From a virus, in IMG/VR virus record IMGVR_UViG_3300049347_000001, positions 1 through 61,186 of that record: a stretch of 61,186 nucleotides of DNA, one strand, 5' to 3'. Of this stretch, positions 1 through 61,186 are shown in pieces. Both the position numbers and the translations under genes were made by a program. The notes under the pieces were generated by a model. It had not been told where the DNA came from. It worked only from the letters and a program-made list of their open reading frames with translations, and did no database searches. The number at the start of each line of letters is the position of its first letter. Position 1 is the stretch's first letter.

Positions 1-127
1 GGGGCGGTCCAGCCGCCGGCCACGGCGCGCAGCTGGGGTCCGGGCTGCGGGTCGGGCTCGTCGTCGTAGCAGCCCTTGTCGAGCCAGTTGGCCGGGTACT
101 TCGTGTACTTGGGGTCCTGGCCGAAGC
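1..127. repeat. Left copy of a 127-nt exact terminal duplication (overlap of a circular assembly)
   Basis: Read directly: nt 1-127 (ggggcggtccagccgccggcc...ggtcctggccgaagc) equal nt 61060-61186 without mismatch. Confidence 0.95.
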
Positions 128-917
128 GCTCGCGGGCGTAGGCCTGGGCGGCGTCGACGATGCGCTTGGGATCCACGCCGCGCTCGATGGCGGCGATCCA
201 GGCCTTCTTGGCCGCCTCGCGGTCGCGCTTCTTGGGGTAGTTGCTCCAGAAGGCACCGAAGGCTTCGAGGTGGTAATCCGTCTTCTCGCTGCTGCTCTTG
301 GTCTGGGCCGGGGCTGCGGATGCCTGGGGCTCGGTCGAGCCAGCTGCGGGAGAAGAGTCTTTTAGTAGTTGGTTGTCTGACGGTTGTTGGTGGTTAGGGC
401 GGCGTTCCGTCCGTGACGAACGGACTTTAAGTCCGTGACGAACGGACGCAGAGTCCGTGACATCGGCGGTCACGGACTCTGCGTCCGTGACTGTCACGCC
501 TTCTGAATCCGTGACGGTCACAGACTCTGCGTGCGTGACACGCTTCGAGCGGGACCGCCGTTTCCGCTCGGCAGCCGCGGCCCGGAAGTCGTCTTCCTCC
601 CGCTCGAGGTCGCTCCAGTCCGTTGCCGGCCGGAGCAGGTGCATGGCGAGCGTGTAGCGGGTCCGGCTCTCCGTCATGCCGTCCTTGGCGATGAGTCCGG
701 CTTTCTCCAGCCGCCGCAGGGCGCGCTGGACGGTGGTCCGGTCGTAGCCGGTGCGGTACTGGATGCGGAGCACGGAGGGGTGCGCGTTGGTGCCGGTGGA
801 ACTCGCATGCTCAGCAAGCGCCTGAAGGACGTGCCGGGCAGTGGTGTCCGGCTTCCCTTTCTCGGTGTGCGGCATGGGCGCGTGGTCCATGGCCCAGGCG
901 ACGGCCTCAGTACTCAC
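1..917 (-). CDS. Replication initiator / replisome-organiser-like protein, N-terminal two thirds (gene crosses the window junction and ends at 60981)
   Basis: Not in ORF track (runs off the edge). GTG 917 with GAAGGAAG RBS. Own translation: VSTEAVAWAMDHAPMPHTEKGKPDTTARHVLQALAEH..YDRTTVQRALRRLEKAGLIAKDG (winged HTH) ... FGAFWSNYPKKRDREAAKKAWIAAIERGVDPKRIV..YPANWLDKGCY. 917..128 (790 nt) + 61186..60981 (206 nt) = 996 nt, in frame. Confidence 0.7.
   Translation of the reverse strand, partial: MSTEAVAWAMDHAPMPHTEKGKPDTTARHVLQALAEHASSTGTNAHPSVLRIQYRTGYDRTTVQRALRRLEKAGLIAKDGMTESRTRYTLAMHLLRPATDWSDLEREEDDFRAAAAERKRRSRSKRVTHAESVTVTDSEGVTVTDAESVTADVTDSASVRHGLKVRSSRTERRPNHQQPSDNQLLKDSSPAAGSTEPQASAAPAQTKSSSEKTDYHLEAFGAFWSNYPKKRDREAAKKAWIAAIERGVDPKRIVDAAQAYARERFGQDPKYTKYPANWLDKGCYDDEPDPQPGPQLRAVAGGWTA
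351..398. other. AT-rich tract adjacent to iterons (candidate DNA-unwinding element)
   Basis: agaagagtcttttagtagttggttgtctgacggttgttggtggttagg is conspicuously AT-rich for this genome; lies inside the initiator ORF (encodes linker ..PNHQQPSDNQLLKDSS). Confidence 0.4.
409..539. repeat. Iteron-like array of GTCCGTGAC / GTCACGGAC (candidate origin of replication)
   Basis: Perfect 9-mers at 409, 431, 453, 483 (direct) and 469 (inverted); 8/9 variants at 507, 517 (inverted), 531. 17-bp unit GTCCGTGACGAACGGAC twice (409-425, 431-447) separated by TTTAA; 14-bp perfect inverted repeat 448-461 / 469-482. Confidence 0.6.
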
Positions 918-1129
918 GGGTTACTTCCTTCGGGAGGGTGTCTGTGCTGGTCACGGCTGGGTTTGGACAGCCCTCATGGAGGCTCGAACCGGCCTCGATC
1001 TCGCCGGTTGGCGTGCCGCCAGTCTACCCCTGGGTGGATAGTCACCCGCAACTCATTCGGCACACACAATGCCCGCTCGCCGAGGTTGGCGGGGTGTGTA
1101 GTCACTGCACAGTCGGCTACGCTGTCGAC

Positions 1130-1339
1130 ATGACGACGAAGGGGACGCCCGGCCGCATGGTCCGCATCGAGGACGACGTGTGGGCGGACTACGAGAAGGT
1201 GTGCAAGGAGAAGGGGCTCGCGCGCGCCGCAGACATTCGCATGTACGTCGTCCGTGAAGTCACCGCTTGGCGCAAGCAGCAGGCCCGCCAGAGCGCTCTC
1301 CAGCGTCGGTTCGACAATCTGCACGACTCCGAGTCCTGA
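1130..1339 (+). CDS. Small ribbon-helix-helix (CopG/Arc-like) DNA-binding protein, 69 aa
   Basis: ATG 1130 inside track ORF 938..1339; MTTKGTPGRMVRIEDDVWADYEKVCKEKGLARAADIRMYV fits strand-helix-helix; divergent from initiator gene; followed by hairpin 1366-1385. Confidence 0.6.
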   Translation: MTTKGTPGRMVRIEDDVWADYEKVCKEKGLARAADIRMYVVREVTAWRKQQARQSALQRRFDNLHDSES

Positions 1340-9080: not shown

Positions 9081-9365
9081 TCAGGCGGCGACGGGGGTCT
9101 TGCGGCGCGAGGTGCGCGGCTCCGGCGGGCGGGAGTCGCGGACGCGCTGGGCGTCGGTCTCGTCGTCCATCTCGGCCTTGAGCCAGGCGTCCAGCTCGGT
9201 GATCGAGTAGGCGAGCTTCCGGCCGATGGGCGTGGCCTTCGGGCCCTTGCCGAGGTGCCGGTAGTTCCAGAGGGTCTTGACGCTGAGGCCGATACGGCGG
9301 GCTGCTTCGGGGGTCCAGAGGTAGCCGGCGGGCGGCGGAGTCGGGACCTTGGCGAGCCTGGGCAC
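9081..9365 (-). CDS. Excisionase-family (MerR-like HTH_17) DNA-binding protein, 94 aa
   Basis: GTG 9365 with strong GGAAGGAGAGGA RBS; YLWTPEAARRIGLSVKTLWNYRHLGKGPKATPIGRKLAYSITELDAWL. Confidence 0.65.
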   Translation of the reverse strand: MPRLAKVPTPPPAGYLWTPEAARRIGLSVKTLWNYRHLGKGPKATPIGRKLAYSITELDAWLKAEMDDETDAQRVRDSRPPEPRTSRRKTPVAA

Positions 9366-10951: not shown

Positions 10952-12313
10952 GTGCCGGGATATATCGAAGACCGCTGGTACAAGAAGGGCCCGGACGGCA
11001 AGCGCAACGTCCCTACGGACAGGCACGGCCAGGGTAAACGCTATAAGGCCACCGGCATTCCAGGCGTGCGCGCCCGGTCCTTCCCCGACGGCAAGCTGAC
11101 TGCGGCGAAGAAGTGGCTGGCCGACGCCCAGACCGACAGCACGCGCGGAGAGTTCTACGATCCGCGGGACGGCACCATCACCCTCGACGCCTACGTGCGC
11201 AATCACTGGTGGCCGACCACCCGTTACCCTCCCACGACGAAGGCCTCCGTCAAGTCCAAGGTCTTCAACCACATCCTCCCGCACGTCGGCGCGCTGTCCC
11301 TGAACCGCATCGGGTTCGAGGAGATCCGCGCCTGGCAGACGCGCGCCGAGCGGGACATCGACGTCGGCACACTCGTCGTGACGTGGGCCCACTTCTCCTC
11401 GATCATGCAAGCGGCGTTCAAGGCGAAACGCATCCCCGCAAATCCATTCCGTGACGACGAGCTGAGAGCCCCGCGGCTGCCCAAGTCGAAAGCCCTGGCG
11501 TGGCCGCAGGAAACTGTGCTCGCCATCAGGTCGGCTCTGCCCGAGCGGTACCGCATCTTCGTCGACCTGGCGGTCGGCGCCGGCCTGCGGCAAGGGGAGA
11601 CGTTCGCCTTCTCCCCCGATGATGTCGACGGCGAGGACATCAACGTCGTCCGGCAGATCGTGAAGGTGGGCGGCCGGTTCGCGTTCGCGCCGCCGAAGGG
11701 CAACAAGGAGCGCGTCGCGCCCTGCGCGCCAGAGCTGGCGAAGGCCGTCAAGGAGTACGCCAACCGCTTCCCGTCGGTGGCCGTGACGCTCCCGTGGGTG
11801 GATCCCGACCGGCCGAACCTCGCCTGGGACGAGCGGCCGAAGCGCACAGTCCGGCTGCTCGTCACCACACAGTTCACGGCAGGCGCCAACGGCGGAGCGG
11901 TCACGAGGGACACGTTCAACGACCGGCAGTGGAAGCCGGCTCTGCGGAACGCGGGGCTGATCGACGCCCCGGACGTCACGTGGCACGAGCCGACGAACGG
12001 GAAGCAGCCCTGGCGCAAGGAGGTGTGGGCGATGCCGCGGGAGTTCGGCTTCCACGTCCTGCGCCACACGTTCGCTAGCGTCGTCCTGGCCGAGGGTGAG
12101 ACCATTACCCAGCTGGCTGCCTGGCTGGGGCACGCGGATCCGGCGTTCACGCTGCGGACCTACGTGCACTTCATGCCGAAGTCAGGGAGCCGAGGGCGGG
12201 CGGCCATCGGCCGGTTCATGACCGGCGAGCCGGCTGAGCCCGTAGGACTCCCCGGAGATATCCCTGAAATGGATCTCCCCAGATCCTCCCCAGAGATCGT
12301 TACCCACGACTGA
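10952..12313 (+). CDS. int: Tyrosine integrase, 453 aa
   Basis: Catalytic signature readable: VGAGLRQGE (R), HVLRHTFAS (HxxR), LGHADPAFTLRTYVH (H..Y); long N-terminal arm-binding-type region; adjacent to a non-coding attP-like gap. Confidence 0.9.
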   Translation: MPGYIEDRWYKKGPDGKRNVPTDRHGQGKRYKATGIPGVRARSFPDGKLTAAKKWLADAQTDSTRGEFYDPRDGTITLDAYVRNHWWPTTRYPPTTKASVKSKVFNHILPHVGALSLNRIGFEEIRAWQTRAERDIDVGTLVVTWAHFSSIMQAAFKAKRIPANPFRDDELRAPRLPKSKALAWPQETVLAIRSALPERYRIFVDLAVGAGLRQGETFAFSPDDVDGEDINVVRQIVKVGGRFAFAPPKGNKERVAPCAPELAKAVKEYANRFPSVAVTLPWVDPDRPNLAWDERPKRTVRLLVTTQFTAGANGGAVTRDTFNDRQWKPALRNAGLIDAPDVTWHEPTNGKQPWRKEVWAMPREFGFHVLRHTFASVVLAEGETITQLAAWLGHADPAFTLRTYVHFMPKSGSRGRAAIGRFMTGEPAEPVGLPGDIPEMDLPRSSPEIVTHD

Positions 12314-13991: not shown

Positions 13992-14045
13992 GTGCCACGT
14001 ATGCGACCGCTCGCGTGGTACACCCTGGCGTGTCACGTTGACCGA

Positions 14046-14294
14046 GTGATCGAATTCGAGGCGGATGTGCCTAGGTGGCGGCAGGTAGCGGAGGTGATCC
14101 GAGGGCGGATCACGGACGGCACGTACCCGCCTCGCACGCGCGTCCCGTCGGTCGTCCAGCTGGCCACCGAGTTCGGTATCGCGCAGGCCACCGCACAGAA
14201 AGTTCACCGCGGGTTGCGGGATGAAGGGCTCATCTACACGGAGCCGGGCCTGGGCTCCTTCGTCACGGAGTTGCCCCGGCCGGCCGGTTCATAG
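14046..14294 (+). CDS. Minimal GntR-family winged-HTH regulator (no effector domain), about 83-98 aa
   Basis: In frame within track ORF 13545..14294; GTG 14046 (alt ATG 14001). WRQVAEVIRGRITDGTYPPRTRVPSVVQLATEFGIAQATAQKVHRGLRDEGLIYTEPGLGSFV. Confidence 0.7.
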   Translation: MIEFEADVPRWRQVAEVIRGRITDGTYPPRTRVPSVVQLATEFGIAQATAQKVHRGLRDEGLIYTEPGLGSFVTELPRPAGS

Positions 14295-15220: not shown

Positions 15221-16249
15221 TCACAGGCCGATGTCCTCGGACGCGGCGTCGGTCCACTTGTCGGCTTCGCGGATGTAGCCCCAGAAGGCGGGGCTGTTGT
15301 CTGCGTGTCCGGACTGGGCGCGGATCTTCTCTTCGCGCTTCCCGGCGACTCGGCTGGCGGTGATGAATCCGGCCCGCATCGAGTGTCCGGTGAGGCGGAC
15401 GGCGAGCCCGGCGCGTTCGGCGTTGCGGGCGATGATCTCGCGGACGGCTTCCGGGGAGAGGTGGCCGGTGCCGAGGTTGCCCCAGATGTCGATGGCGACG
15501 AAGGCGGGCCCGGTCTCGATCCCGGCTGCGGCTTTCCAGGTGAGCCATGCGCGGACGGGGCAGGTGTCGGGGTTCTTGCCGTAGGCGACGGCGACGTTGC
15601 GGGGCGGTCGGCCTTTGACGGCGGGCACGTCCACGGCGAGGCCCTTGCTGCCGACGATGATGCTGTCGGCGCGGAGGGCGGCGACTTCGGCGGAGCGTCC
15701 GGCGATACCGAAGGCGAGGAGCCAGAGTGCGCGGTCGCGAAGTCCGGCGAGCCCTGCGGGTACGGCGGCGGCCATCTGCCGGAGCTGTTCGGGGGTGACG
15801 GCGGCGGCCTTGCCCCGTCCGCGCGCCATGCGTTCGGGGTCGTGCTTGAGCGGCTTGAGTGCCTGCCGCGCGGCGACGGTTGCGGCCTTGGGGACTTCGA
15901 CCCCATGTTCGTTCCGCGCGGTGACGGTGACGCCGGTGATCCGGCGGTCGATGCTGTTGGGTGCGGCGAGCTTAATGGTGTCGAGCCAGACGACGAACCC
16001 GACGAGCGTGCCCTTGGTGACGGCGGTCGAGGCGATCCGCTTGCCGGTGCGTTCCCCCAGCCAGTCGTGGAACTCCTCCCAGAGTGCCCAGTCGTTGGCG
16101 TAGCCGCGCTTCGTGTTGTGGGGACGAATGGCGTCGAGGTGCTTCTCGGCTGCCTCTTCCATAGCGGCGAGGACGGCGAGCGTCGCAGCGTCGTAGACGA
16201 CGGGGGTGGCGTCCGGGGCCCGCGTGACGATGTCGGTCACTCCTCGCAC
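15221..16249 (-). CDS. Second tyrosine recombinase (Cre/Xer-like), 342 aa
   Basis: AFGIAGRSAEVAALR (R), GHSMRAGFITA (HxxR), SGHADNSPAFWGYI (H..Y); N-terminus NTKRGYANDWALWEEFHDWL resembles a Cre/Xer core-binding domain. Alternative start GTG 16240 (GTGA overlap with upstream stop). Confidence 0.85.
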   Translation of the reverse strand: MRGVTDIVTRAPDATPVVYDAATLAVLAAMEEAAEKHLDAIRPHNTKRGYANDWALWEEFHDWLGERTGKRIASTAVTKGTLVGFVVWLDTIKLAAPNSIDRRITGVTVTARNEHGVEVPKAATVAARQALKPLKHDPERMARGRGKAAAVTPEQLRQMAAAVPAGLAGLRDRALWLLAFGIAGRSAEVAALRADSIIVGSKGLAVDVPAVKGRPPRNVAVAYGKNPDTCPVRAWLTWKAAAGIETGPAFVAIDIWGNLGTGHLSPEAVREIIARNAERAGLAVRLTGHSMRAGFITASRVAGKREEKIRAQSGHADNSPAFWGYIREADKWTDAASEDIGL

Positions 16250-17317: not shown

Positions 17318-17671
17318 TCACACGTCGATGTGGTGAATGTACTGGCGGGCCCGATCCGACATCGGCTCGGCCGGCGGCGCCTCAAGCCCGGCCTTCTTGA
17401 TGTGGGACACCAGAGAGCGGACCCGGTACAGGAGCCAGCCGATCGCCTCGTCCTGGTCGCCGATGCGCTTCCGCTGATCCTCCGCCTCAGTCTCCTGCCG
17501 CTGGACGCGGCCTTCCAGGCGCTCGATGGCCTTGCCCTGCTGGGTGGTGATGGCGAGGAAATCATCGCGGCTTTCCTGCCGCCTGGTCCTGCGCGCGGAC
17601 CGGGCCGCCACCACGCCGCCCGCCGTGCCCACCACAGCCAGACCTGCCTGGATCCAGGTGTCGACCGTCAT
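17318..17671 (-). CDS. Lysis-cassette protein with N-terminal TM helix and coiled coil, 117 aa
   Basis: ATG 17671 in ATGA overlap with upstream stop; WIQAGLAVVGTAGGVVAA TM, then charged heptads (RLEGRVQRQETEAEDQRKRI). Confidence 0.55.
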   Translation of the reverse strand: MTVDTWIQAGLAVVGTAGGVVAARSARRTRRQESRDDFLAITTQQGKAIERLEGRVQRQETEAEDQRKRIGDQDEAIGWLLYRVRSLVSHIKKAGLEAPPAEPMSDRARQYIHHIDV

Positions 17672-18093
17672 GTGTAGCTCACTCTCTTCATATGGTGCGG
17701 CTCACGCCATCCCGCCACGACCAGCACGGGAACGGCGATCACGCCCCACACGAGCGCGGCGACCCACCCCCTTGAGAAATCGCCCATCAGCCATGCGATG
17801 AGGTAGGAGCCGACCCATGGCAGGACCATCAACGGCAGGGCGAGGAAGGCGACCCAGTCGCGGCCCTGCGGCAGCCACGCCGACACGATCGCGACGAGGC
17901 CGGTGCCGATCCAGAGCCATCCCCACATCGACAGCGACGTGTGCTCCAGCAGTGGCTGGAGGCCGCGCTGGTCGGGCTGGGGGGTGGTGATCTGCGCGTA
18001 GCCGTAGAGGGACCAGACGATGCCGTAGCAGAGGAGGATTGCGCCGCGGCGGCCCAGCATCCTGCCCAGCCGCCGAGCCACCCGGCGCGGCAC
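17668..18093 (-). CDS. Polytopic membrane protein (about 4 TM), lysis cassette, 141 aa
   Basis: GTG 18093 abuts the TAG stop of the holin-like gene; Trp-rich hydrophobic segments (ILLCYGIVWSLYGY, WGWLWIGTGLVAIVSAWL, ...). Confidence 0.6.
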   Translation of the reverse strand: MPRRVARRLGRMLGRRGAILLCYGIVWSLYGYAQITTPQPDQRGLQPLLEHTSLSMWGWLWIGTGLVAIVSAWLPQGRDWVAFLALPLMVLPWVGSYLIAWLMGDFSRGWVAALVWGVIAVPVLVVAGWREPHHMKRVSYT

Positions 18094-43067: not shown

Positions 43068-43104
43068 GGGTGTGGCTCCGATTCGTTTTTGTGGTGGTTT
43101 GTTC

Positions 43105-43260: not shown

Positions 43261-43290
43261 CTAATCAGGGGTGCATTCTTCGCGTACCGG

Positions 43291-45564
43291 TCACAGTAGG
43301 TGGCGGAGACGATCACGCTTGAAGCCCCGCGGGCTCTTCTCCTCGCCGATCGGCCCGAGCGTGATCGGCGACCCGGCGCCCGCCTTCTTCATCAGCGCCT
43401 TGAACGCATCGACGTCCATCTCGCCGTAGGCGTCGGGGTCGTACTCCTGCAGGGCGGCGAGCAGCGGCTCCGTCTTCATCCGGTCGACGTCCGCCTTGAG
43501 CATCACGTCCACCGCGCCCTGGACCGCAGCCCGCGCCGGACCGTCCGTCAACTCCGAACCGGCCGGCGGCTCGGCGCCGCACAGGCGCAGCAGATGCTCC
43601 CAGGTGAGGAGTTCGACCGGGGCCGGCTTCTTGATCACGCCGTCCTTGTCGTACTCGGGCTCGACGTACTCGGGCAGGTCAACGCCCCGCATCCCGTCGA
43701 GACTGTCCTGGTCCGGGTCGAGGAGCCCCGCTTCGAAGCGCTCCTCGGCGAGCTTGCGCAGCACGTCGGACGGCGTCTCGTGTACGGCGTACTCGATCGG
43801 CTCGTCAGGCCGTCCCGGCACGCCCTGCAGGTAGATGTGGCCCGCGTCCTTGGCGTCGGTGTCGGTGGCCGGGGACAGCCGGTGCGGGAGGTAGCCCTCC
43901 TTCACCGAGCCGTCGCCGAACACTGCGCGGGTGTCGCCGACCTTGCAGGGGCCAACCGCTTTGAGGGCCACCATCTGGGCGAAGTTCTCGCCGAGGTAGC
44001 CCTTCTGGCCGCCCTGCGAGGCGATCTCCAGCTCGATGAGTTCCTTGCGGCCGACGAGCAGCAGGTCGAACGCCAACTGCTTGGCGAGCGCGGTGCCCTT
44101 CGGGAACTCGTCGAAGAAGATCGTGACTGCCGGGTGGGTGGGGCTGGCTTTCCACTTCTTTCCCATGCCGAGCTTCTGCCGCAGCCGGGCTCGCGCCTTG
44201 GACATGACGAGGAAGAACAGCAGGACGGCTTCGATCTGTTCGTTGGTGCGGGCGGTGATCCGTACCGCGGCGCCGAGGTCTTCGAGGCCGTCGCCGTGCG
44301 GATCGAGGTCGATGGTGATGTTGTCGCGGCAGGCGGTGGTGCCTTCGGCGAGGGCTTGGAGGATGCCGGTCTTGCCGCCGCCGGAGGCAGCGACCCACAG
44401 GCCCATGACGCCGGCGAGGGACAGTTCGAGGGGGTCGCCGCCGACGCTGGTGCCGATGCGGAACCGGTCGGTGATCGACAGGGACTTGGGGGCGCGGTAC
44501 GGGAGGCTGGGAGCGGTGGCGAACGGGTCGCCGGACACGAGGCGCAGGATGGCGCAGGCGCGTCGGGCTTGGAGGGGCTGGGGTCGGACGCCGTTGGTGG
44601 GCAGGTCGAACTTCGTCTCGAGGTCACCACTCTTCTCGATGATCGCCTCGGGAGTGCCGTCGGAGACGCGGACGACGCACTGCCAGCCCCACGGCTGCCG
44701 AACCACGTCCGACACCTCGACGATCGGCACGTTCTCGGCGCGGACGGCGAGGAGGACGCACTGGGCGAGCTGGTCAGGCGTGTGCGCGTTCCGCAGAGGG
44801 AACGGCTTGGCGTCGGCGGCGAGCTGCTCGACGTTCATGACGACGCCGCTCATTCCGGGCATCACCGCTCCCCCGGCCGGGCCCGCCTGGAACGTGGCGG
44901 GCAGGCTGCCGGTCGGGGTCGTCACGAAAGGGATCTCCACCCCCTCGGCGGTACGCGCCGTGAAGGGGCGGCTGATCAGGTACCAGCCGTACCCGGCAGC
45001 AGCTCCGAGCGCGGCAAGAAGCACCGGCTGCCCAGTGGCGGCCTGTTCGATGGCCGCACCGAGGGCGGGAACGGCGGCGATGCCTCCACCGGCGACGATG
45101 GCGGCCCGGCTGGCCTTCTTCCCCGTTCGTGCGGCGTTGATCTCGCGGTCGGTGGGCGGGAGAAGCGGTGTTGCCTGCATCCCGGCGAGTCGGGCCTCCT
45201 CGGCGGCGACCCTGCCGCCGAGCGAGGCGAGCGCCCCGGCGTTGCCGCCGGTCTCGCCGGCCTCGGCGTGGGCCTTGGCCACGGCGAACCGGGCGTGGGC
45301 TTCGGCGACGAGCCGCTGCTGTTGAGCGATCCGCTCGGTGTATTTGCGGGTCTTGGTGTCGGTGGCGAGCTGGATGGCGGTGACCTGGTCTATGTCTCCG
45401 GTGGCGAGCCAGTTCCGCATCCGGGCGCCGACGTGGCCGCGCTGCTCAGTGAAGGCGACCTTGGCCTGCTTGCTGCGGCTCGGCGTTGATGCGGTCGGCG
45501 GCTCGGCGGGCATGGGCGGGACTGCTGGCTTCTCGACGGGGGTGGGTCCGGTCTCGGTGGCCAC
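43291..45564 (-). CDS. FtsK/SpoIIIE-family (TraB/TraSA-like) membrane-anchored DNA translocase, 757 aa
   Basis: Track ORF 43291..46245 trimmed to GTG 45564 (the upstream 227 codons are Arg-rich and overlap the next gene; hairpin 45592-45613 in the gap). Two TM helices, Walker A LWVAASGGGKTG, Walker B VTIFFDEFP. Confidence 0.8.
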   Translation of the reverse strand: MATETGPTPVEKPAVPPMPAEPPTASTPSRSKQAKVAFTEQRGHVGARMRNWLATGDIDQVTAIQLATDTKTRKYTERIAQQQRLVAEAHARFAVAKAHAEAGETGGNAGALASLGGRVAAEEARLAGMQATPLLPPTDREINAARTGKKASRAAIVAGGGIAAVPALGAAIEQAATGQPVLLAALGAAAGYGWYLISRPFTARTAEGVEIPFVTTPTGSLPATFQAGPAGGAVMPGMSGVVMNVEQLAADAKPFPLRNAHTPDQLAQCVLLAVRAENVPIVEVSDVVRQPWGWQCVVRVSDGTPEAIIEKSGDLETKFDLPTNGVRPQPLQARRACAILRLVSGDPFATAPSLPYRAPKSLSITDRFRIGTSVGGDPLELSLAGVMGLWVAASGGGKTGILQALAEGTTACRDNITIDLDPHGDGLEDLGAAVRITARTNEQIEAVLLFFLVMSKARARLRQKLGMGKKWKASPTHPAVTIFFDEFPKGTALAKQLAFDLLLVGRKELIELEIASQGGQKGYLGENFAQMVALKAVGPCKVGDTRAVFGDGSVKEGYLPHRLSPATDTDAKDAGHIYLQGVPGRPDEPIEYAVHETPSDVLRKLAEERFEAGLLDPDQDSLDGMRGVDLPEYVEPEYDKDGVIKKPAPVELLTWEHLLRLCGAEPPAGSELTDGPARAAVQGAVDVMLKADVDRMKTEPLLAALQEYDPDAYGEMDVDAFKALMKKAGAGSPITLGPIGEEKSPRGFKRDRLRHLL

Positions 45565-46102: not shown

Positions 46103-47473
46103 TTAGCTGGCGCTCGGGCGGGAGTTGTTGCGGCGCAGAAGCTCTGCGTGGGCGCGGCCGGCGGCGCGGGTGTAGCGGGGCGTGTCACCGGCTTTACGGA
46201 CGGGCGGAACGGGCTTGTACGAGGACCGGGGTGTTTGGATCGCACGCTGGGCGTTCGTGTTCTTGCTGAGGGTGTTCACGCGGGTGCCGGTGAGGGCGGA
46301 TTCGACGCGCTTTTCGGCAGCCCGGCGGGCAGTGATGGACTCGATGGACTCGCCGGGTTCGCAGCCGTGGATGTTCCGGTATGCGCGCGGCCACACGGCC
46401 GGGTCGTCGGGCTCCTTGCCGAGAGCGGCGCCGATCTTCACGGCCTCTTCCCACACCGTCTTGAACACGGTCTGTCGGATGCCGCGCAGTTCCTGCCGCG
46501 CTTTCTCGGCGGCCTGGTCCGCGGCCTCCTTCTCCGCCCGCTTCTCCTTGGCCTCAGCGGCTTGCCGCTTGGCCTCCTTGTCAGCCTGTTTCTGGGCGGC
46601 ACGCTGCTGCCGCCACGACAGCTTCCCGTCCAGCTTGCGGATGCGACCGTGCTCGTGGAGGTCCCACATGCCGGGGCCGGCGACCGAGGCCAGGGCCGTT
46701 CCGAAGGCGGTCGCCGGGTCGAAGGCGCCGAGCCCGTGAACGATGTTGATCGACGCGGCGGTCAGGGCGCCGACCCAGGCGACGAGGCGGTAGTGCCACT
46801 GCGGGCGCCCGTCCGTCACCGCGGCGGCAGCACCGACGAGAGCGACCAGCGCGATCACCTCGATGAAGAGCGGGGCGACGAGCAGGTACTTTGCGGTCGG
46901 GTCGTAGAACGCGGCCATCTGCACAGGGAGGGCGACCGCAGCGCACAGGGCGTAGAAGGCGAGGGCGACGTTCCGCCAGCGCGTGCCGGACTTCTCGACG
47001 GCCTCCGCCTGCTCGGCCTCGGTCTGCTGTTCCTCCTCGGCGTCCCGGGCGGCTTGCTCGCGGGCGCGGTCGGCTTCCTCACGGCGCCGCTGATGCTCGG
47101 CGATCCGTGCGTCGGACGCGGCCTTCTCTTCTGCGGCCTTGCGTTCGGTCCGGTCGTTGGCGAGGCGCTGCTTGCGGGCGTCCTCCTCGGCCTTGACGCG
47201 AATCGCCTCAGCTTCGGCTTCCGCCTTGATGCGGCGCTCTTCCTTCTCCGCTTCGGCGGCGAGCCGCTTCTTCTCCGACTCGGCCCACGCCTGGGCGCGG
47301 ATCGCTTCGGCCTTGGCCTGGGCGACGAGGTCGTTGTCGCCCGCCTCGGCGGGCGACGCCGGAGCGGTGGTGGCTTCGGCCAGTGTGGTGGGGGCGGCCT
47401 GTATGGGCTGCCAGTCACCCAGCACGGGCGGGACGGGCCTAGCGTGGCCGTTCACCTGCGGGCTGGCAGTCAT
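46103..47473 (-). CDS. Coiled-coil + polytopic membrane protein (DUF2637-like, from memory), 456 aa
   Basis: Trimmed to ATG 47473; EKEERRIKAEAEAEAIRVKAEEDARKQR coiled coil, then 4 TM (VALAFYALCAAVALPVQMAAF.., LLVAPLFIEVIALVALVGAAAAV, ..), basic C-terminus. Confidence 0.6.
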   Translation of the reverse strand: MTASPQVNGHARPVPPVLGDWQPIQAAPTTLAEATTAPASPAEAGDNDLVAQAKAEAIRAQAWAESEKKRLAAEAEKEERRIKAEAEAEAIRVKAEEDARKQRLANDRTERKAAEEKAASDARIAEHQRRREEADRAREQAARDAEEEQQTEAEQAEAVEKSGTRWRNVALAFYALCAAVALPVQMAAFYDPTAKYLLVAPLFIEVIALVALVGAAAAVTDGRPQWHYRLVAWVGALTAASINIVHGLGAFDPATAFGTALASVAGPGMWDLHEHGRIRKLDGKLSWRQQRAAQKQADKEAKRQAAEAKEKRAEKEAADQAAEKARQELRGIRQTVFKTVWEEAVKIGAALGKEPDDPAVWPRAYRNIHGCEPGESIESITARRAAEKRVESALTGTRVNTLSKNTNAQRAIQTPRSSYKPVPPVRKAGDTPRYTRAAGRAHAELLRRNNSRPSAS

Positions 47474-50609: not shown

Positions 50610-51245
50610 GTGGACGTCGTAACGTGGACCGGCCGCGACGCATGCGCCTTGCAGCAGGCCCTCCGCATGACGAACGACGACTTCGCCGACCACCTCGGCG
50701 TCGCCGTGCGCACGGTGGCGAACTGGCACTCCTCCCCCGGCACCGTGCCACGAACCGAGATCCAATCCGCCCTGGACACCGCTTACGAGAGGTCGACCGC
50801 ATCGGTGCAACGACGCTTCAGTCTTCTAACCCGCCCCGGCCCTGGTGCCGTCGAGGCGCAGGCCCTGCGGGTAGCGATCGCCGTAGTCCTGCGCGGAGAT
50901 GACGTGCTCCTCGTCTGCCGTCGCGGGGACGGCGAGATCCGCTGGCAGTTCCCCGCCGGCATGGTCAAGCCCGGCGCAGACCCTGCCGCCGTGGCCGCGC
51001 AGGAGACGCACGGCGAGACGGGCGTGCACTGCCGGGTCCGCGAGCAGCTGGGCGAGCGCGTACACCCGGTCACGGGCGTCGTGGCCACGTACTACCTGGC
51101 CGAGCACCTCGCGGGCGAGGCGGCCAACCGGGACCCGCTGGAGAACATCGACGTCACCTGGGCGCCCCGCTCGACCCTGACCCGCTTCATCCCCGCCGAC
51201 CAGATCTTCCCGCCCATCCTGAGCGCCTTGGAGGTTGCCGCATGA
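50610..51245 (+). CDS. XRE-type HTH fused to a degenerate Nudix domain, 211 aa
   Basis: Track ORF 50550..51245 trimmed to GTG 50610 (AAGGGG RBS). WTGRDACALQQALRMTNDDFADHLGVAVRTVANWHS = HTH; Nudix-box region GMVKPGADPAAVAAQETHGETGV lacks the first E, the R of RE and one E of EE. Confidence 0.7.
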   Translation: MDVVTWTGRDACALQQALRMTNDDFADHLGVAVRTVANWHSSPGTVPRTEIQSALDTAYERSTASVQRRFSLLTRPGPGAVEAQALRVAIAVVLRGDDVLLVCRRGDGEIRWQFPAGMVKPGADPAAVAAQETHGETGVHCRVREQLGERVHPVTGVVATYYLAEHLAGEAANRDPLENIDVTWAPRSTLTRFIPADQIFPPILSALEVAA

Positions 51246-51658
51246 CGACCGAGACGAAGACCGAGAAGCCCGGCATCTCCGCGGCCATCATCGTGGACCA
51301 GGGCTGCGTGCTCATGGTCAGGCGGGCCGTGAAGGAGGGCGAACTCTCCTGGCAGTTTCCGGCCGGCGCGATCGAGGCCGGGGAGGCGGCCGACGAGGCG
51401 GCGGTGCGGGAGACGCTCGAGGAGACTGGCCTGACAGTCAAGGCGATCCGGCAGATCGGCTACCTGGAATCCCACCCGAAGTCCGGCCGGGAGATGTTCT
51501 ACACGGCCTGCGAGGTTCTCCAGGGCGAGGCCAAGGTCGCCGACGCTGACGAGCTGGACGCGGTCGCCTGGGTGACGCTGGAGGAGATCCCGCAGTACGT
51601 GCCCTACGGGCTGTTCGGGCCGGTGCAGGAGTACCTCGACGCCACCCTCGGTCGTTGA
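51242..51658 (+). CDS. Nudix hydrolase with canonical Nudix box, 138 aa
   Basis: ATGA overlap with the previous gene; GAIEAGEAADEAAVRETLEETGL fits GX5EX7REUXEEXGU exactly. Confidence 0.85.
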   Translation: MTTETKTEKPGISAAIIVDQGCVLMVRRAVKEGELSWQFPAGAIEAGEAADEAAVRETLEETGLTVKAIRQIGYLESHPKSGREMFYTACEVLQGEAKVADADELDAVAWVTLEEIPQYVPYGLFGPVQEYLDATLGR

Positions 51659-59001: not shown

Positions 59002-59017
59002 GGGGTTTTCCTCTCGG

Positions 59018-60397
59018 TCAGGTCTTGGCCATATCGACGAATCGGGCATAGTGCCCCTGGAAGGCGACGGTGATGGTGGCCGTGGGCCCGTTGCGGTGCT
59101 TGGCGACGATCAGGTCGGCCTCGCCGGCGCGCGGGGAGTCCTTCTCATAGGCGTCCTCGCGGTGAAGCAGGATCACGATGTCGGCGTCCTGCTCCAGGGA
59201 TCCGGACTCGCGCAGGTCGGACAGCAGCGGCTTCTTGTCCTGCCGCTGTTCGGGCCCGCGGTTCAGCTGGGACAGGGCGACGACCGGTACCTGCAGATCC
59301 ATGGCGAGGGTCTTGAGGCCACGGCTGATCCGGGAGACCTCCTGCTGCCGGTTGTCGTTGCGCCCGCCGCCCTCCCCGCCCATCAGCTGCAGGTAGTCGA
59401 TGACCACCAGGCCGAGGCCGTGCTGGCGCTGGACGCGACGGCAGTGGGATCGGATCTTCGCGAGGGTGACGCCGGTGTCGGCAACGATGAACAAGGGCGA
59501 CGCCTGCATGTCCTTGCCGGCCTCGACCAGCTTCATGATCTTGGCGTCGTCGAGCGGACCCTTGTGCTTCATCCAGTGCAGCGGATAGCGAGCCTGCGCG
59601 GACAGGAACCGCTTCTCGAGTTCCTTGCGGCCCATCTCCAGCGAGAAGAACAGCGTCGGAATGTCGTTGCGGATAGCGGTGTTGCGGGCGAAGTCTCCGG
59701 CGAGGACGGACTTGCCCATCGCGGGCCGGGCGGCGATGAGGACGAACTGGCCGGGCTGCAGGCCGCCGGTGAGGTCGTCGAAGTCGATGAAGCCGGTCTG
59801 CAGCCCCTCCTTGGGGCCGTTCTCCCGGATGTCGACGACCTCGGCGACGGTGTCCATGATGTCGGTGCCGACGGCCAGGTCGTCGTCGCGGCCGTCGGTG
59901 AGGCCGGTGAGTCCTTCGAGGGTGTCGTAGGCGTCCTGGACGATCTCGTCGGGGGTGCGCTCGCGGCCGTGGACGCTGTGGGCCATGCCGTTGGCGGCTT
60001 CGAGGATCTTCCGCAGTGCGGCTTTCTCCCGGACGATCTCGGCGTGGGTCTCGGCGTTGCCGACGGTGACGACGGCGTTGACGAGTTCGAACGGGTAGGT
60101 ATGGCCGCCGCAGCGGGTCAGCTCTCCGTCCCTCTCGAGCCGGTTGGTGAGGGCGATCGGGTCCCGTGCCTCGCCGGAGGCGTGAAGGTCGACGAGCGTG
60201 CGGTAGATCACCTCGTGGGCCGGCCGGTAGAAGTCGGCAGGCTCGAGGATCTCGATGACTTCTTCGGTGGCCCGGTCGGACAGGATCATCGCGCCGAGGA
60301 CGGACTTCTCGGCGGCCACGTCGACCGGCGGCAGCTCCTTGGCGAGCGGCTGCCCGTAGGGGTCGTCGGTGGGCGGCTCGTCGTAATCGTGGGTCAC
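59018..60397 (-). CDS. dnaB: Replicative DNA helicase DnaB, 459 aa
   Basis: Track ORF 59018..60577 trimmed to GTG 60397 (GGAGGA RBS; GTGA overlap). AEKSVLGAMIL.., Walker A ARPAMGKSVLAGDFA, LFFSLEM, VVIDYLQLM, SQLNRGPEQR, LRESGSLEQDADIV = full DnaB motif set. Confidence 0.9.
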   Translation of the reverse strand: MTHDYDEPPTDDPYGQPLAKELPPVDVAAEKSVLGAMILSDRATEEVIEILEPADFYRPAHEVIYRTLVDLHASGEARDPIALTNRLERDGELTRCGGHTYPFELVNAVVTVGNAETHAEIVREKAALRKILEAANGMAHSVHGRERTPDEIVQDAYDTLEGLTGLTDGRDDDLAVGTDIMDTVAEVVDIRENGPKEGLQTGFIDFDDLTGGLQPGQFVLIAARPAMGKSVLAGDFARNTAIRNDIPTLFFSLEMGRKELEKRFLSAQARYPLHWMKHKGPLDDAKIMKLVEAGKDMQASPLFIVADTGVTLAKIRSHCRRVQRQHGLGLVVIDYLQLMGGEGGGRNDNRQQEVSRISRGLKTLAMDLQVPVVALSQLNRGPEQRQDKKPLLSDLRESGSLEQDADIVILLHREDAYEKDSPRAGEADLIVAKHRNGPTATITVAFQGHYARFVDMAKT

Positions 60398-60981
60398 GCG
60401 TGGGTCCTCCTGTGGTCTGCGCCGGTGAATCTGGCGGCGGTGGAGCCGCCGTCGGCGAAGCGGGACATGGTTCGGGGGCCGAGCGGGTCGAGCGTGGGCA
60501 GGTTGGTGGAGATGAGGGTGGGGAGCTGGTTCTGCCAGCGGGCGTCGATCAGTTGGGCGATCGCGTCGACGGTCCACGGGTACAGCTGGGTGGCGCCGAG
60601 GTCGTCGAGGGCGAGCAGTGGCGCCTCGGCCCAGGTGCGGAGCTTTTCGCGGTCGACGGGCCGGTCCGCGGCGGCCTTGAACTCGAAGTCGCTGACGAGG
60701 TAGTAGCGGCCGAACCAGCCGCGGCGGATCAGCAGCTCACCGGTTTTCCACAGGTGCCAGGTCTTGCCGGTGCCGGGCTCTCCGAGGAGCAGCAGCGAGG
60801 CGTGGGATCCAGTGAGGTAGTTCTCGATCCACTGGCTGACTTCGGGGCGGACGGTGCCGTCGGCGACGAATGCTTTGGGCCGGCGGGCGAGGTAGCGGTC
60901 GAGGGTCTGGTCGCGGATCTCGGCGCGGGCGGCGGCCTGTTCGGCATCGTGGCGGGCTCGCCGCCCGTCGGGGGTGGTCAT
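60394..60981 (-). CDS. DnaC/IstB-like AAA+ ATPase (helicase-loader candidate), 195 aa
   Basis: Walker A LLLLGEPGTGKTW, Walker B LLALDDLG, LISTN; between the initiator and dnaB; ATG 60981 in ATGA overlap with the initiator stop. Confidence 0.8.
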   Translation of the reverse strand: MTTPDGRRARHDAEQAAARAEIRDQTLDRYLARRPKAFVADGTVRPEVSQWIENYLTGSHASLLLLGEPGTGKTWHLWKTGELLIRRGWFGRYYLVSDFEFKAAADRPVDREKLRTWAEAPLLALDDLGATQLYPWTVDAIAQLIDARWQNQLPTLISTNLPTLDPLGPRTMSRFADGGSTAARFTGADHRRTHA

Positions 60982-61186
60982 CAGAAGGGCCTCGAGTTCT
61001 CGTAGTCCTCTTTGGTGGGCACGGGCGCGGCGGCACCGGTGGCGGGGTGGGGGCGGTTCGGGGCGGTCCAGCCGCCGGCCACGGCGCGCAGCTGGGGTCC
61101 GGGCTGCGGGTCGGGCTCGTCGTCGTAGCAGCCCTTGTCGAGCCAGTTGGCCGGGTACTTCGTGTACTTGGGGTCCTGGCCGAAGC
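60981..61186 (-). CDS. Replication initiator-like protein, C-terminal part (continues from 1..917 across the junction)
   Basis: Own translation of the end: ..GGWTAPNRPHPATGAAAPVPTKEDYENSRPF*; TGA at 60983..60981. Confidence 0.7.
   Translation of the reverse strand, partial: FGQDPKYTKYPANWLDKGCYDDEPDPQPGPQLRAVAGGWTAPNRPHPATGAAAPVPTKEDYENSRPF
61060..61186. repeat. Right copy of the 127-nt exact terminal duplication
   Basis: Identical to nt 1-127. Confidence 0.95.

What the first reader, a model, noticed from the sequence alone, without database searches (positions are those of the whole stretch)
1..61186. Phage genome carrying the hallmark gene set of actinomycete integrative conjugative elements
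On top of a full virion and lysis programme, the element encodes gene families that define Streptomyces AICEs such as pSAM2:
- a tyrosine Int plus excisionase-family HTH;
- a GntR regulator (KorSA-like);
- a single FtsK/SpoIIIE-type translocase (TraSA/TraB-like) with neighbouring polytopic membrane proteins (Spd-like);
- Nudix hydrolases (Pif-like).

These genes are dispersed at 14, 43-47 and 50-52 kb rather than forming one inserted block. That argues for an old mosaic, not a recent AICE insertion. If functional, the element could move dsDNA between mycelial compartments or cells as well as by virions.
Basis: inference. Interest (0 to 1): 0.7.

Follow-up and report, generated by a model that had tools for sequence, protein, structure and literature searches.

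The report
Streptomyces phage with plasmid-type DNA-transfer module
This is the complete genome of a temperate Streptomyces phage that, besides its virus-particle genes, carries a conserved gene module like the one Streptomyces plasmids use to pump double-stranded DNA from cell to cell, so it may also spread without particles.

Summary
The window is a circularly assembled ~61.06-kb temperate Streptomyces siphovirus genome with a full virion and lysis programme. It also encodes two tyrosine recombinases, two HTH_17 proteins, a 97-aa GntR wHTH, two NUDIX proteins and one FtsK-type translocase (g60) flanked by membrane proteins.

"AICE hallmark set" is only partly right:
- g60 fails PF01580 and NCBIfam plasmid_TraB.
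- No AICE-type Rep is present.
- The GntR lacks an effector domain.
- pSAM2 was unavailable for direct comparison.

The g60 model nevertheless matches the FtsK motor (Foldseek E~1e-14), and g60 is homologous and syntenic to the translocase of pFP1-type Streptomyces plasmids.

New here: a 223-bp palindromic array of CTGCTCA/TGAGCAG sits directly 3' of g60, where plasmid clt sites lie. It is the strongest k-mer cluster in the genome and is conserved in most of 45 related (pro)phage loci. Homologous plasmids carry analogous arrays with other motifs.

The module g62-g61-g60-array-g59...g57 is core to a widespread mosaic prophage family. The NUDIX pair occurs in about 40% of loci, and head genes vary.

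Best reading (inferred, ~0.45): a TraB/Spd/clt-like system moves phage dsDNA across hyphal septa. The plasmid-phage pZL12 is a precedent. I rate it a new variant of a known kind.

The parts
43291..45564 (-). g60, 757 aa: divergent FtsK/TraB-like dsDNA translocase. Layout: N-terminal helical region, two hydrophobic helices (~154-198), alpha/beta motor with Walker A AASGGGKT (392) and Walker B IFFDE (482), and a C-terminal winged-helix-like domain (~670-757).
   Evidence: phrog_12531 E=2e-67. AF2 model of aa 235-757: pLDDT 86.7. Foldseek to FtsK motor 6T8O/2IUT/2IUS: E 1e-14 to 1e-12, TM ~0.68. BLASTP to plasmid 'DNA translocase FtsK': E=9e-59. Family HMM hits a PF01580+PF09397 protein at E=4e-54. 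No PF01580 or NF041214 hit for g60 itself.
43068..43290 (.). clt-like non-coding array directly 3' of g60. It holds at least 9 copies of CTGCTC(A)/(T)GAGCAG, direct on one half and inverted on the other. It is framed by GCAGGTCA...GGCCTGC in the window (TGACCTGC in relatives and plasmids) and forms a long imperfect palindrome.
   Evidence: Sequence and repeats. 7 of the genome's 14 CTGCTCA/TGAGCAG sites lie within 43108-43251. Scan statistic log10p = -11.1 against a best of -4.45 in 60 simulations. Fold z = -5.0. No sigma-70 promoter or intrinsic terminator. Conserved in relatives. Analogous arrays follow the plasmid homologs.
45624..46079 (-). g61, 151 aa: small membrane protein (signal/TM segment plus 2 TM) between g62 and g60.
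   Evidence: Hydropathy. Conserved in 26 of 45 related loci. No family hit.
46103..47473 (-). g62, 456 aa: SpdB2-like by architecture. It has a charged helical N-terminal arm, 3-4 TM helices (168-270) and a charged C-terminal arm.
   Evidence: Hydropathy and composition. Weak BLASTP (E=1e-6) to the plasmid protein upstream of the translocase, which is annotated or scored as DUF2637. 10 of 40 family members give weak DUF2637 hits, and source names include 'SpdB2 protein' and 'DUF2637'. Present in 36 of 45 loci.
42663..43067 (-). g59, 134 aa: conserved protein of unknown function, the first gene after the array.
   Evidence: Present in 41 of 45 related loci. No family hit.
41788..42294 (-). g57, DUF6197 protein: a conserved member of the module neighbourhood.
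   Evidence: PF19698 E=5e-18. Present in 41 of 45 loci.
50610..51245 (+). g70, 211 aa: N-terminal HTH plus a NUDIX fold with a degenerate Nudix box (likely regulatory). It lies on the strand opposite to the flanking genes.
   Evidence: PF00293 E=1e-12. Box GMVKPGADPAAVAAQETHGETGV. PADLOC PDC-S07 E=6e-8. Present in 17 of 45 loci.
51242..51658 (+). g71, 138 aa: NUDIX hydrolase with a canonical Nudix box.
   Evidence: PF00293 E=4e-23. Box GAIEAGEAADEAAVRETLEETGL. PDC-S07 E=3e-16. No tblastn hit in 50,697 phage records. Present in 18 of 45 loci.
14001..14294 (+). Short GntR-family winged-helix protein (97 aa, no effector domain) in the lysogeny region.
   Evidence: PF00392, 41.3 bits, E=1.2e-10. 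Best NCBIfam match is the HutC N-terminus.
10952..12313 (+). g21, 453 aa: tyrosine integrase.
   Evidence: PF00589. phrog_1 integrase E=1e-34.
15221..16240 (-). g26, 339 aa: second tyrosine recombinase.
   Evidence: PF00589. phrog_216 and phrog_1.
9081..9365 (-). g17: HTH_17 (excisionase/MerR-type) protein.
   Evidence: PF12728 E=1e-8.
41428..41655 (-). g56: second HTH_17 protein.
   Evidence: PF12728 E=3e-6.
17318..39534 (-). Packaging, head, tail and lysis programme: HNH, TerS, TerL, portal, protease, capsid, connectors, tail, TMP, tail tip, endolysin and holin-like proteins.
   Evidence: Pfam. TerL is 63% identical to Arthrobacter phage RootBeer.
3..917 (-). g1: replication initiator (HTH_36 / phage O-like) with internal iteron-like repeats at 408-540. 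The gene wraps the assembly junction.
   Evidence: phrog_270 E=9e-26. Repeats. Junction.
59018..60981 (-). DnaB helicase (59018-60397) and an IstB/DnaC-like loader (60394-60981).
   Evidence: PF03796 E=5e-92 and PF01695.

Best explanation
The window is the whole genome of an integrase-type temperate Streptomyces siphovirus. It belongs to a widespread, mosaic family of Streptomyces prophages.

The family shares a conserved module with these parts, in order:
- g62, a SpdB2-like membrane protein;
- g61, a small membrane protein;
- g60, a membrane-anchored FtsK-fold dsDNA translocase with a C-terminal winged helix;
- a clt-like array of short repeats directly after g60;
- g59 and a DUF6197 protein (g57).

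The module is homologous and syntenic to the DUF2637 protein - translocase - repeat array module of pFP1-type Streptomyces plasmids.

Proposed mechanism (inferred): after excision or infection, g60 hexamers load on the array of the circular phage DNA through their C-terminal domain. With g61 and g62 forming the membrane or septal conduit, they pump the double-stranded phage genome across hyphal cross-walls, and possibly between touching hyphae. The phage would then occupy neighbouring compartments without virions, as TraB/Spd/clt do for plasmids and AICEs.

The NUDIX pair and the GntR-type regulators are separate, frequently associated accessory or regulatory genes. They probably act in immunity, exclusion or control, analogous to Pif and KorSA.

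Shown here: homology, fold, synteny, the array and its conservation. Inferred: DNA binding to the array and DNA transfer.
For: - Complete phage: virion, lysis, RecT/YqaJ and DnaB genes plus integrases; circular assembly.
- g60 has an FtsK motor fold: E=1.7e-14, TM 0.68. It has N-terminal hydrophobic helices and a confident C-terminal helix/strand domain resembling winged helices.
- Homology to plasmid translocases: E=9e-59. That branch carries the PF09397 FtsK gamma wHTH, with intermediates carrying PF01580.
- Plasmid synteny: GntR ... DUF2637 protein - small protein - translocase. g62 relates weakly to the DUF2637 protein.
- The array is the strongest k-mer cluster in the genome. At least 8 CTGNTCA-family sites occur in 33 of 45 related loci, and the frame occurs in 41-44 of 45.
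- Plasmid homologs have arrays at the same place with different motifs: CTCTAC in pFP1 and GCCGATCA in BB1-1-1.
- This matches proven tra-clt layouts. pWTY27 clt comprises 16 bp inside the traA 3' end plus 159 bp, with 7-bp direct and inverted repeats bound by TraA (PMC3583192). In pSVH1, 8-bp repeats are bound by the TraB wHTH (PMC4447253).
- The module is conserved as a unit while head genes vary.
- Precedents: plasmid-phage pZL12 needs a tra gene plus two adjacent genes for conjugal transfer (cited in PMC3583192) and has an FtsK-like gene in the same relative position. Thoma 2015 proposed that SpdB2 homologues in phiC31 and VWB may spread phage DNA (PMC4447253).
Against: - No experiment was possible; binding of g60 to the array and any transfer are inferred.
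- g60 fails PF01580 and NF041214, so it is not a canonical TraB.
- g62 and g61 have no significant family assignment of their own.
- Covariation between motif variant and the C-terminal domain is only suggestive. L006, L021 and L027 carry different or degenerate motifs with ~80-86% identical C-termini. Physical linkage would also confound such a test.
- Virulent ~133-kb Streptomyces phages carry a homolog with no adjacent array. The protein family therefore need not serve conjugation-like transfer.
- The module lies in the same orientation as the replication and late genes. Lytic growth in the receiving compartment might make transfer pointless, or it might be exactly the point.
Confidence: 0.45

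Rival explanations
1. Segregation or dimer resolution. The FtsK-like motor and the converging repeat array work like FtsK/KOPS/dif. The motor would load on oriented motifs that point to the array centre, and would either activate a Xer-like recombinase (for example g26) to resolve replicating phage circles or pump phage genomes into prespore compartments. It would not transfer DNA between cells.
For: - The motifs are direct on one half and inverted on the other, converging on a dyad centre, as KOPS converge on dif (established FtsK biology).
- A second, XerC/D-sized tyrosine recombinase is present.
- The plasmid homolog branch has an FtsK gamma domain.
Against: - g26 is not part of the conserved module; it did not co-occur within +/-10 kb.
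- Proven plasmid clt sites also combine direct and inverted repeats (PMC3583192).
- The membrane partners g61 and g62, and the DUF2637 synteny with plasmid modules, fit a trans-envelope conduit better.
Confidence: 0.2
2. Host manipulation. The FtsK-like protein is a phage 'development-manipulating' or replication accessory gene that acts on host DNA or septation, as the literature generally assumes. The array would be merely a regulatory palindrome (operator or attenuator) for the downstream g59 operon.
For: - FtsK-like genes are common in virulent Streptomyces phages. They are discussed as host-development or replication genes.
- The Jay2Jay homolog has no adjacent array.
- The array sits just upstream of g59's RBS.
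Against: - There is no sigma-70-like promoter or intrinsic terminator in the array.
- The same array position and frame occurs after plasmid translocase genes whose downstream genes are unrelated.
- Co-conserved membrane partners are present.
Confidence: 0.15
3. Exclusion or defence. The module and/or the NUDIX pair are prophage-encoded superinfection-exclusion or anti-MGE functions, for example blocking incoming conjugative elements or phages.
For: - Both NUDIX proteins match the PADLOC candidate defence family PDC-S07.
- The NUDIX genes lie on the opposite strand, like lysogen-expressed morons.
- Pif of pSAM2 is a Nudix conjugal-immunity factor (PMC2440964).
Against: - PADLOC finds nothing for g57, g59, g60, g61 or g62.
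- The NUDIX pair is present in only about 40% of loci carrying the module, so the two are separable.
- This reading does not explain the array.
Confidence: 0.1
4. Recent capture of an AICE or plasmid fragment by a phage, carried as a non-functional passenger.
For: The closest non-phage homologs of g60 are on Streptomyces plasmids at up to 45% identity.
Against: - The module is conserved at 66-82% protein identity in more than 120 protein clusters and 45 sampled loci with intact ORFs.
- Composition is uniform with the rest of the genome.
- Identity to plasmid genes is only 31-45%.
- The AICE-like genes are dispersed.
Confidence: 0.05

Closest known systems
Streptomyces conjugative-plasmid transfer modules of the pFP1 type (GntR - DUF2637 protein - small protein - 'DNA translocase FtsK' - repeat array)
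   Same: - g60 is homologous to the plasmid translocase over ~520 aa (E=9e-59).
- The gene order is the same: a membrane protein (weak homology, DUF2637-like) and a small protein lie upstream.
- A palindromic short-repeat array follows the stop codon, framed by GCAGGTCA...TGACCTGC on the plasmids. The window has GCAGGTCA on the left and GGCCTGC on the right.
   Different: - Identity is only 31-45%.
- The plasmid proteins carry a recognisable FtsK gamma domain (PF09397), whereas g60's C-terminal domain is unrecognised by Pfam.
- The repeat motif differs (CTCTAC or GCCGATCA against CTGCTCA).
- The host replicon here is a virion-forming integrative phage, not a plasmid.
TraB/clt/Spd system of pSVH1, pIJ101, pWTY27 and AICEs such as pSAM2 (TraSA)
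   Same: - A single membrane-anchored FtsK-like hexameric motor with a C-terminal wHTH.
- A clt of 7-9-bp repeats at or after the 3' end of tra.
- A partner with SpdB2-like architecture: coiled coil, about 4 TM segments and a C-terminal arm (PMC4447253, PMC3583192).
   Different: - g60 has no hit to NCBIfam plasmid_TraB or PF01580.
- There is no AICE-type Rep.
- The element is 61 kb and has virion genes.
- The GntR lacks an effector domain.
- Function is untested.
Streptomyces plasmid-phage pZL12 / phiZL12 (GQ919031)
   Same: - It is a Streptomyces phage genome that also carries an FtsK/SpoIIIE-like tra gene with two adjacent genes, one encoding a membrane protein. These lie next to the packaging genes, with a GntR regulator nearby.
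- Conjugal transfer requiring the tra gene and its two neighbours is reported (cited in PMC3583192).
   Different: - pZL12 is an extrachromosomal ParAB plasmid-prophage of 90 kb. The window has integrases and no ParAB.
- The translocases share only the Walker A region (E=7e-6).
- No repeat array is evident after pZL12.71c.
- pZL12 is a singleton (PMC7157519), whereas this module is widespread.
FtsK-like DNA translocase of large virulent Streptomyces phages (Jay2Jay gp111 and relatives; phrog_12531)
   Same: Same protein family: 36-37% identity over the motor; phrog_12531 E=2e-67.
   Different: - Those phages are ~133 kb.
- Their gene is followed by a 74-aa membrane protein and tRNAs, with no array.
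- They have no g62-like or g59-like partners detectable by tblastn.

Membership tests
AICE (operational definition of Ghinet et al. 2011, PMC3218068: Int + Rep + Tra) | Site-specific recombinase (PF00589 or PF07508) | tested here: met
   Two PF00589 proteins, g21 and g26.
AICE (operational definition of Ghinet et al. 2011, PMC3218068: Int + Rep + Tra) | Tra protein detected by the FtsK_SpoIIIE HMM PF01580 | tested here: not met
   g60 has no Pfam hit even at E<=5. The fold is nevertheless FtsK-like.
AICE (operational definition of Ghinet et al. 2011, PMC3218068: Int + Rep + Tra) | Rep of RepSA, RepAM (PF12307) or Prim-Pol (PF09250) type | tested here: not met
   A whole-proteome Pfam scan found neither PF12307 nor PF09250; no RepSA model was held, so RepSA was not scanned. 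Replication genes are an HTH_36/phage O-like initiator, DnaB and an IstB/DnaC-like loader.
AICE (te Poele 2008, PMC2440964) | GntR (KorSA-type) or XRE regulator | tested here: inconclusive
   A GntR wHTH is present, but it is 97 aa with no UTRA/FCD domain. KorSA was not available for comparison. An S. canus relative has a full GntR+UTRA protein next to NUDIX.
AICE (te Poele 2008, PMC2440964) | Nudix hydrolase (Pif-type conjugal immunity factor) | tested here: inconclusive
   The NUDIX domain is present twice, with a canonical box only in g71. Orthology to Pif and any immunity function are not testable here.
AICE (te Poele 2008, PMC2440964) | Small (about 9-24 kb) element without virion genes, integrated in a tRNA gene | tested here: not met
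   The element is 61 kb with a full virion module. There is no tRNA. The att region carries a fragment of a protein-coding gene.
Streptomyces TraB/clt dsDNA transfer system | FtsK-like alpha/beta motor with Walker A and B motifs | tested here: met
   Foldseek to the FtsK motor: E=1.7e-14, TM 0.68. Walker motifs present.
Streptomyces TraB/clt dsDNA transfer system | N-terminal membrane anchor | tested here: met
   Hydrophobic helices at ~154-198.
Streptomyces TraB/clt dsDNA transfer system | C-terminal winged-helix domain that recognises clt | tested here: inconclusive
   A confident C-terminal domain (pLDDT 82-91) has a helix/strand pattern and weak Foldseek similarity to winged helices. Plasmid homologs have PF09397. 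g60 has no HMM hit, and binding is untested.
Streptomyces TraB/clt dsDNA transfer system | cis-acting clt: short direct/inverted repeats at or after the 3' end of tra | tested here: met
   The array at 43068-43290 is statistically exceptional and conserved. Its function as a clt is not testable here.
Streptomyces TraB/clt dsDNA transfer system | Sequence membership in NCBIfam NF041214 plasmid_TraB | tested here: not met
   g60 has no hit at E<=1. Its plasmid and phage homologs score 25-27 bits against a cut-off of 800.
Streptomyces TraB/clt dsDNA transfer system | SpdB2-type spread protein (coiled coil + 4 TM; DUF2637) | tested here: inconclusive
   The architecture of g62 fits. g62 itself has no DUF2637 hit, while 10 of 40 family members hit weakly. 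BLASTP to a plasmid DUF2637-like protein gives E=1e-6.
Streptomyces TraB/clt dsDNA transfer system | Virion-independent dsDNA transfer or pock formation | not testable with these tools
   Requires mating and pock assays.
Temperate tailed phage (Caudoviricetes, HK97-type siphovirus) | Terminase, portal, prohead protease, HK97-fold capsid, tape measure, lysis genes and integrase | tested here: met
   Pfam hits. TerL is 59-63% identical to actinophage TerL.
Plasmid-prophage of the pZL12 type | ParA/ParB partition system and extrachromosomal maintenance | tested here: not met
   The Pfam scan found no ParA or ParB. Two integrases are present instead.

The most novel reading that the evidence does not exclude
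A widespread family of integrative temperate Streptomyces phages is dual-mode. Besides virions, these phages would use their own TraB/SpdB2/clt-type apparatus to pump the circular phage genome through septal cross-walls, and possibly between mating hyphae. That would give virion-independent, DNase-resistant spread. It would explain the long-unexplained FtsK-like genes of actinophages and blur the line between prophages and AICEs.
Probability: 0.35. Interest if true: 0.8.

Novelty: new variant of a known kind. Interest (0 to 1): 0.6.

Why it matters
**The open question.** FtsK-like genes are repeatedly noted in Streptomyces and other actinophages, but no function has been tested. They are usually filed under 'host development manipulation'.

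**What this analysis adds.**
- One large prophage family carries a complete plasmid-type translocation module: motor, membrane partners and a candidate recognition site.
- This turns a vague annotation into a directly testable hypothesis, with defined parts for EMSA on a 223-bp fragment, deletions and mobilisation assays.

**If true.**
- Phages of mycelial bacteria could overcome hyphal compartmentalisation by conjugation-like spread.
- That would bear on plaque and pock biology, prophage dissemination, and horizontal gene transfer. TraB systems mobilise chromosomal DNA through clt-like sites.
- It would also bear on the evolutionary relation between AICEs, plasmids and phages.

**If false.**
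- The array and module remain a conserved, unexplained cis/trans pair worth characterising.

Tried and rejected
- **DNA similarity to known phages:** essentially none, only a 73-bp endolysin stretch.
- **phmmer of g60 against PDB sequences:** no FtsK hit. A family profile gave only marginal TrwB, HerA and EccC hits.
- **First AF2 model (full length, shallow MSA):** unusable, with pLDDT 51. Its Foldseek hits were non-significant. It was replaced by a model of aa 235-757 built on a diverse MSA.
- **Naive 'largest 7-mer/8-mer cluster' statistic:** not discriminating, because frequent GC-rich self-overlapping k-mers dominate the shuffles. It was replaced by a count-aware scan statistic.
- **Covariation of motif variant with the C-terminal domain:** suggestive only, and confounded by linkage. 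It is not used as evidence.
- **pSAM2 (AJ005260):** not in the collections, so Pif, KorSA and TraSA comparisons were impossible. The pZL12 paper (PMC2897331) is not held.
- **g62 against phages:** no match. Against plasmids: 2 matches. I could not show a link between g62 and the SpdB2-like genes of phiC31 and VWB.
- **Defence-system reading of the translocase module:** no PADLOC hits.
- **Terminator or sigma-70 promoter reading of the array:** no matches.
- **Recent-insertion reading:** rejected by the conservation data.
- **Source record of the window's own protein:** look-up failed.

Full report
**What the window is.**
- The 61,186-bp window has ~70% G+C throughout, no tRNA and essentially no DNA similarity to isolated phages.
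- Its first and last 127 bases are identical. This is the signature of a circular assembly, so the unique element is 61,059 bp with no host flanks.
- A self-trained codon-usage gene caller gave 89 genes, mostly on the minus strand. Two genes it missed, a short GntR and an HNH endonuclease, were recovered from the gaps.
- Every homolog of the diagnostic genes comes from Streptomyces or Kitasatospora. The host is therefore a Streptomyces.

**The phage programme is complete.** Pfam and PHROG scans identify the following.
- Packaging and head: HNH endonuclease, TerS, TerL, portal, S78 prohead protease, HK97-type capsid.
- Tail: a Big_2-bearing tail protein, a tape measure with an NlpC/P60 start, and a DUF5047 tail protein.
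- Lysis: an amidase/PG-binding endolysin and two small TM proteins.
- Recombination and replication: RecT/YqaJ, a beta-clamp-like protein, a Bro-N/ANT antirepressor, an O-like replication initiator, DnaB and a DnaC/IstB-like loader.
- TerL is 59-63% identical to that of Arthrobacter and Gordonia phages. The structural module is ordinary, but the phage has no close isolated relative.

- Two tyrosine recombinases are present at 10952-12313 and 15221-16240, and two HTH_17 proteins at 9081-9365 and 41428-41655.
- The GntR is real (14001-14294; PF00392, 41 bits). It is a 97-aa winged helix without an effector domain.
- Two NUDIX proteins lie on the plus strand at 50.6-51.7 kb. g71 has a canonical Nudix box. 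g70 is an HTH fused to a NUDIX fold with a degenerate box.
It also fails NCBIfam plasmid_TraB. It does belong to phrog_12531, 'FtsK/SpoIIIE-like' (E=2e-67).
- The neighbours g61 and g62 are membrane proteins. g62 itself does not hit DUF2637.

**Is g60 an FtsK-type motor? Yes.**
- The g60 family HMM hits a protein carrying PF01580+PF09397 at E=4e-54 across the motor region.
- A first full-length AlphaFold model was poor. A model of residues 235-757 built on a diverse alignment reached pLDDT 86.7 and pTM 0.76.
- That model matches the FtsK motor domain (6T8O, 2IUT, 2IUS) at E 1e-14 to 1e-12 and TM ~0.68 over ~410 columns. The next matches are the TcpA coupling protein and EccC/EssC.
- Upstream of the motor are a helical region and two hydrophobic helices. 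Downstream is a confident ~85-aa helix/strand domain that resembles winged helices.
- This is the TraB architecture described for pSVH1 (PMC4447253).

**Relation to plasmids.**
- g60 has homologs on 46 Streptomyces/Kitasatospora plasmids at 31-45% identity.
- In a 46-kb plasmid, in pFP1 and in a 25-kb plasmid the gene order is: GntR regulator(s) ... DUF2637 protein - small protein - translocase. This is the same order as g62-g61-g60.
- g60 aligns with the plasmid translocase over ~520 residues (E=9e-59).
- g62's TM region aligns weakly with the plasmid DUF2637-like protein (E=1e-6).
- Ten of 40 g62-family members give weak DUF2637 hits, and two carry the source names 'SpdB2 protein' and 'DUF2637'.
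- g62's layout (charged helical arm, 3-4 TM helices, charged C-terminal arm) is that reported for SpdB2 (PMC4447253).

- The 223 bp between g60's stop codon and g59 contain at least 9 copies of CTGCTC(A)/(T)GAGCAG. They are direct on one half and inverted on the other, and are framed by GCAGGTCA...GGCCTGC (TGACCTGC in relatives and plasmids).
- Only 14 CTGCTCA/TGAGCAG sites exist in the genome, and 7 of them fall within ~150 bp here.
- A count-aware scan statistic makes this the strongest k-mer cluster in the genome: log10p -11.1, against a best of -4.45 in 60 Markov-2 simulations. A naive statistic was not discriminating.
- The stretch folds as one long imperfect palindrome (z=-5.0). It has no sigma-70-like promoter or intrinsic terminator.
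- The element is conserved in relatives. 33 of 45 loci have at least 8 CTGNTCA-family sites in the same place, and the frame is present in 41-44 of 45. Some loci carry variant motifs: CTGATCA, CTGGTCA or CGAGCAG.
- The plasmid homologs have arrays at the same position with other motifs: CTCTAC/GTAGAG x6-7 in pFP1 and GCCGATCA x6-8 in BB1-1-1.
- Proven clt sites have this layout. pWTY27 clt comprises 16 bp inside the traA 3' end plus 159 bp, with 7-bp direct and inverted repeats bound by TraA (PMC3583192). In pSVH1, 8-bp repeats are read by the TraB wHTH (PMC4447253).
- Covariation between motif variant and the C-terminal domain is only suggestive and is confounded by linkage.

**How common is it?**
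- g60 has more than 120 listed protein clusters at 66-82% identity in Streptomyces chromosomes and metagenomes. Relatives were found in 14 loci from the species-representative genome collection and in 27 IMG/VR viral contigs.
- Across 45 loci (+/-10 kb), the counts are: g60 45, g59 41, g57 (DUF6197) 41, g62 36, g61 26, NUDIX 17-18 and a GntR wHTH 13. TerL, portal and capsid match in only 2-3 loci (contexts).
- The translocase module is therefore the conserved core of a mosaic prophage family, not a recent AICE insertion.
- The NUDIX pair is a frequent but separable companion. It is absent from isolated phages and matches the PADLOC candidate family PDC-S07.
- In one relative a full GntR+UTRA regulator sits beside NUDIX, reminiscent of the KorSA and Pif functions described for pSAM2 (PMC2440964).

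**What is already known.**
- FtsK-like genes are routine in ~133-kb virulent Streptomyces phages (89 records). Papers mention them only as curiosities or as putative development or replication genes.
- Thoma et al. speculated that SpdB2 homologues in phiC31 and VWB might spread phage DNA.
- The plasmid-phage pZL12 is a functional precedent. It carries an FtsK-like gene with two neighbours next to its packaging genes, and a GntR nearby. Its conjugal transfer is reported to need these genes (PMC3583192).
- However, pZL12 is a ParAB plasmid-prophage and a singleton (PMC7157519). Its translocase shares only the Walker A region with g60.
- I found no description of a conserved translocase + SpdB2-like + clt-like module in integrative prophages. 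The library is not exhaustive.

**Verdict.**
- The label 'AICE hallmark set' is only partly apt. The formal AICE criteria (PF01580 Tra, AICE-type Rep, small size) are not met, and the KorSA, Pif and Spd labels are unverified.
- The functional idea behind it is strengthened by fold, plasmid homology and synteny, lineage-wide conservation and the newly found clt-like array.
- I commit to intramycelial and/or intercellular translocation of phage dsDNA as the most likely function (~0.45). Rivals are FtsK/KOPS/dif-like segregation or resolution (~0.2), host manipulation with a regulatory palindrome (~0.15), exclusion or defence (~0.1) and passenger DNA (~0.05).
- Novelty: a new variant of a known kind. 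Interest: 0.6.

Noticed in passing
window 1-127 and 61060-61186: There is an exact 127-bp terminal direct repeat. This is a circular-assembly overlap (k-mer sized), so the contig is a complete circular or circularly permuted element of 61,059 bp. The replication-initiator gene g1 wraps the junction.
   Followed up: yes
window 408-540 (inside g1, 3-917, minus strand): Five to six iteron-like repeats (GTCACGGAC / GTCCGTGAC, spaced 22-30 bp) lie inside the replication-initiator gene. They form the second strongest k-mer cluster in the genome. This is probably the origin embedded in the initiator gene, as in lambda O.
   Followed up: partly
window 12378-12503 (minus strand), just 3' of int (10952-12313): A 41-aa ORF matches the last 29 residues of Pfam RGL11_C (rhamnogalacturonan lyase family 11 C-terminus; E~8e-9). 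The phage probably carries a replacement 3' end of a host protein-coding gene. If so, attP lies in a lyase gene rather than a tRNA gene, unlike most AICEs.
   Followed up: no
window 15221-16240 (minus strand), with 13569-13904 and 14001-14294: A second, XerC/D-sized tyrosine recombinase sits beside a DUF6415 protein and the short GntR. Its role is unknown; possibilities include dimer resolution or a second integration system.
   Followed up: no
window 50610-51658 (plus strand): The two-gene NUDIX operon is oriented against its neighbours. g70 is an HTH fused to a NUDIX fold with a degenerate catalytic box, and g71 is canonical. Both match the PADLOC candidate defence family PDC-S07. g71 has no tblastn match in 50,697 phage records.
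   Followed up: partly
window 40162-41367 (minus strand): g55 (401 aa) contains a collagen-like stretch (GPEGPPGDTGPTGLQGPPGADG). It lies between the translocase module and the HNH/terminase genes, outside the tail module. It recurs in a few relatives at 42% identity.
   Followed up: no
window 39127-39534 (minus strand): An HNH endonuclease lies immediately upstream of TerS, the HNH-terminase arrangement typical of cos phages. The self-trained gene caller missed it.
   Followed up: partly
L009 (Streptomyces lancefieldiae), around 12000-12223: The C-terminus of the FtsK-like gene appears frameshifted relative to all other relatives, which suggests a pseudogene or a sequencing error. The downstream array is intact.
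   Followed up: no
L003 (Streptomyces canus prophage), 1830-4966: This relative has NUDIX next to a GIY-YIG/GntR protein, a full GntR+UTRA regulator (253 aa) and a UTRA-only protein. This GntR-NUDIX neighbourhood is more KorSA/Pif-like than the one in the window.
   Followed up: no
L050 (plasmid NZ_CP134204), L051 (pFP1) and L001, downstream of the translocase genes: Each plasmid has its own short motif arrayed palindromically directly after the FtsK-like gene: GCCGATCA, CTCTAC and CTCTAC respectively. The GCAGGTCA...TGACCTGC frame is seen in full in pFP1 and L001. These are candidate, apparently undescribed clt sites of pFP1-type plasmids.
   Followed up: partly
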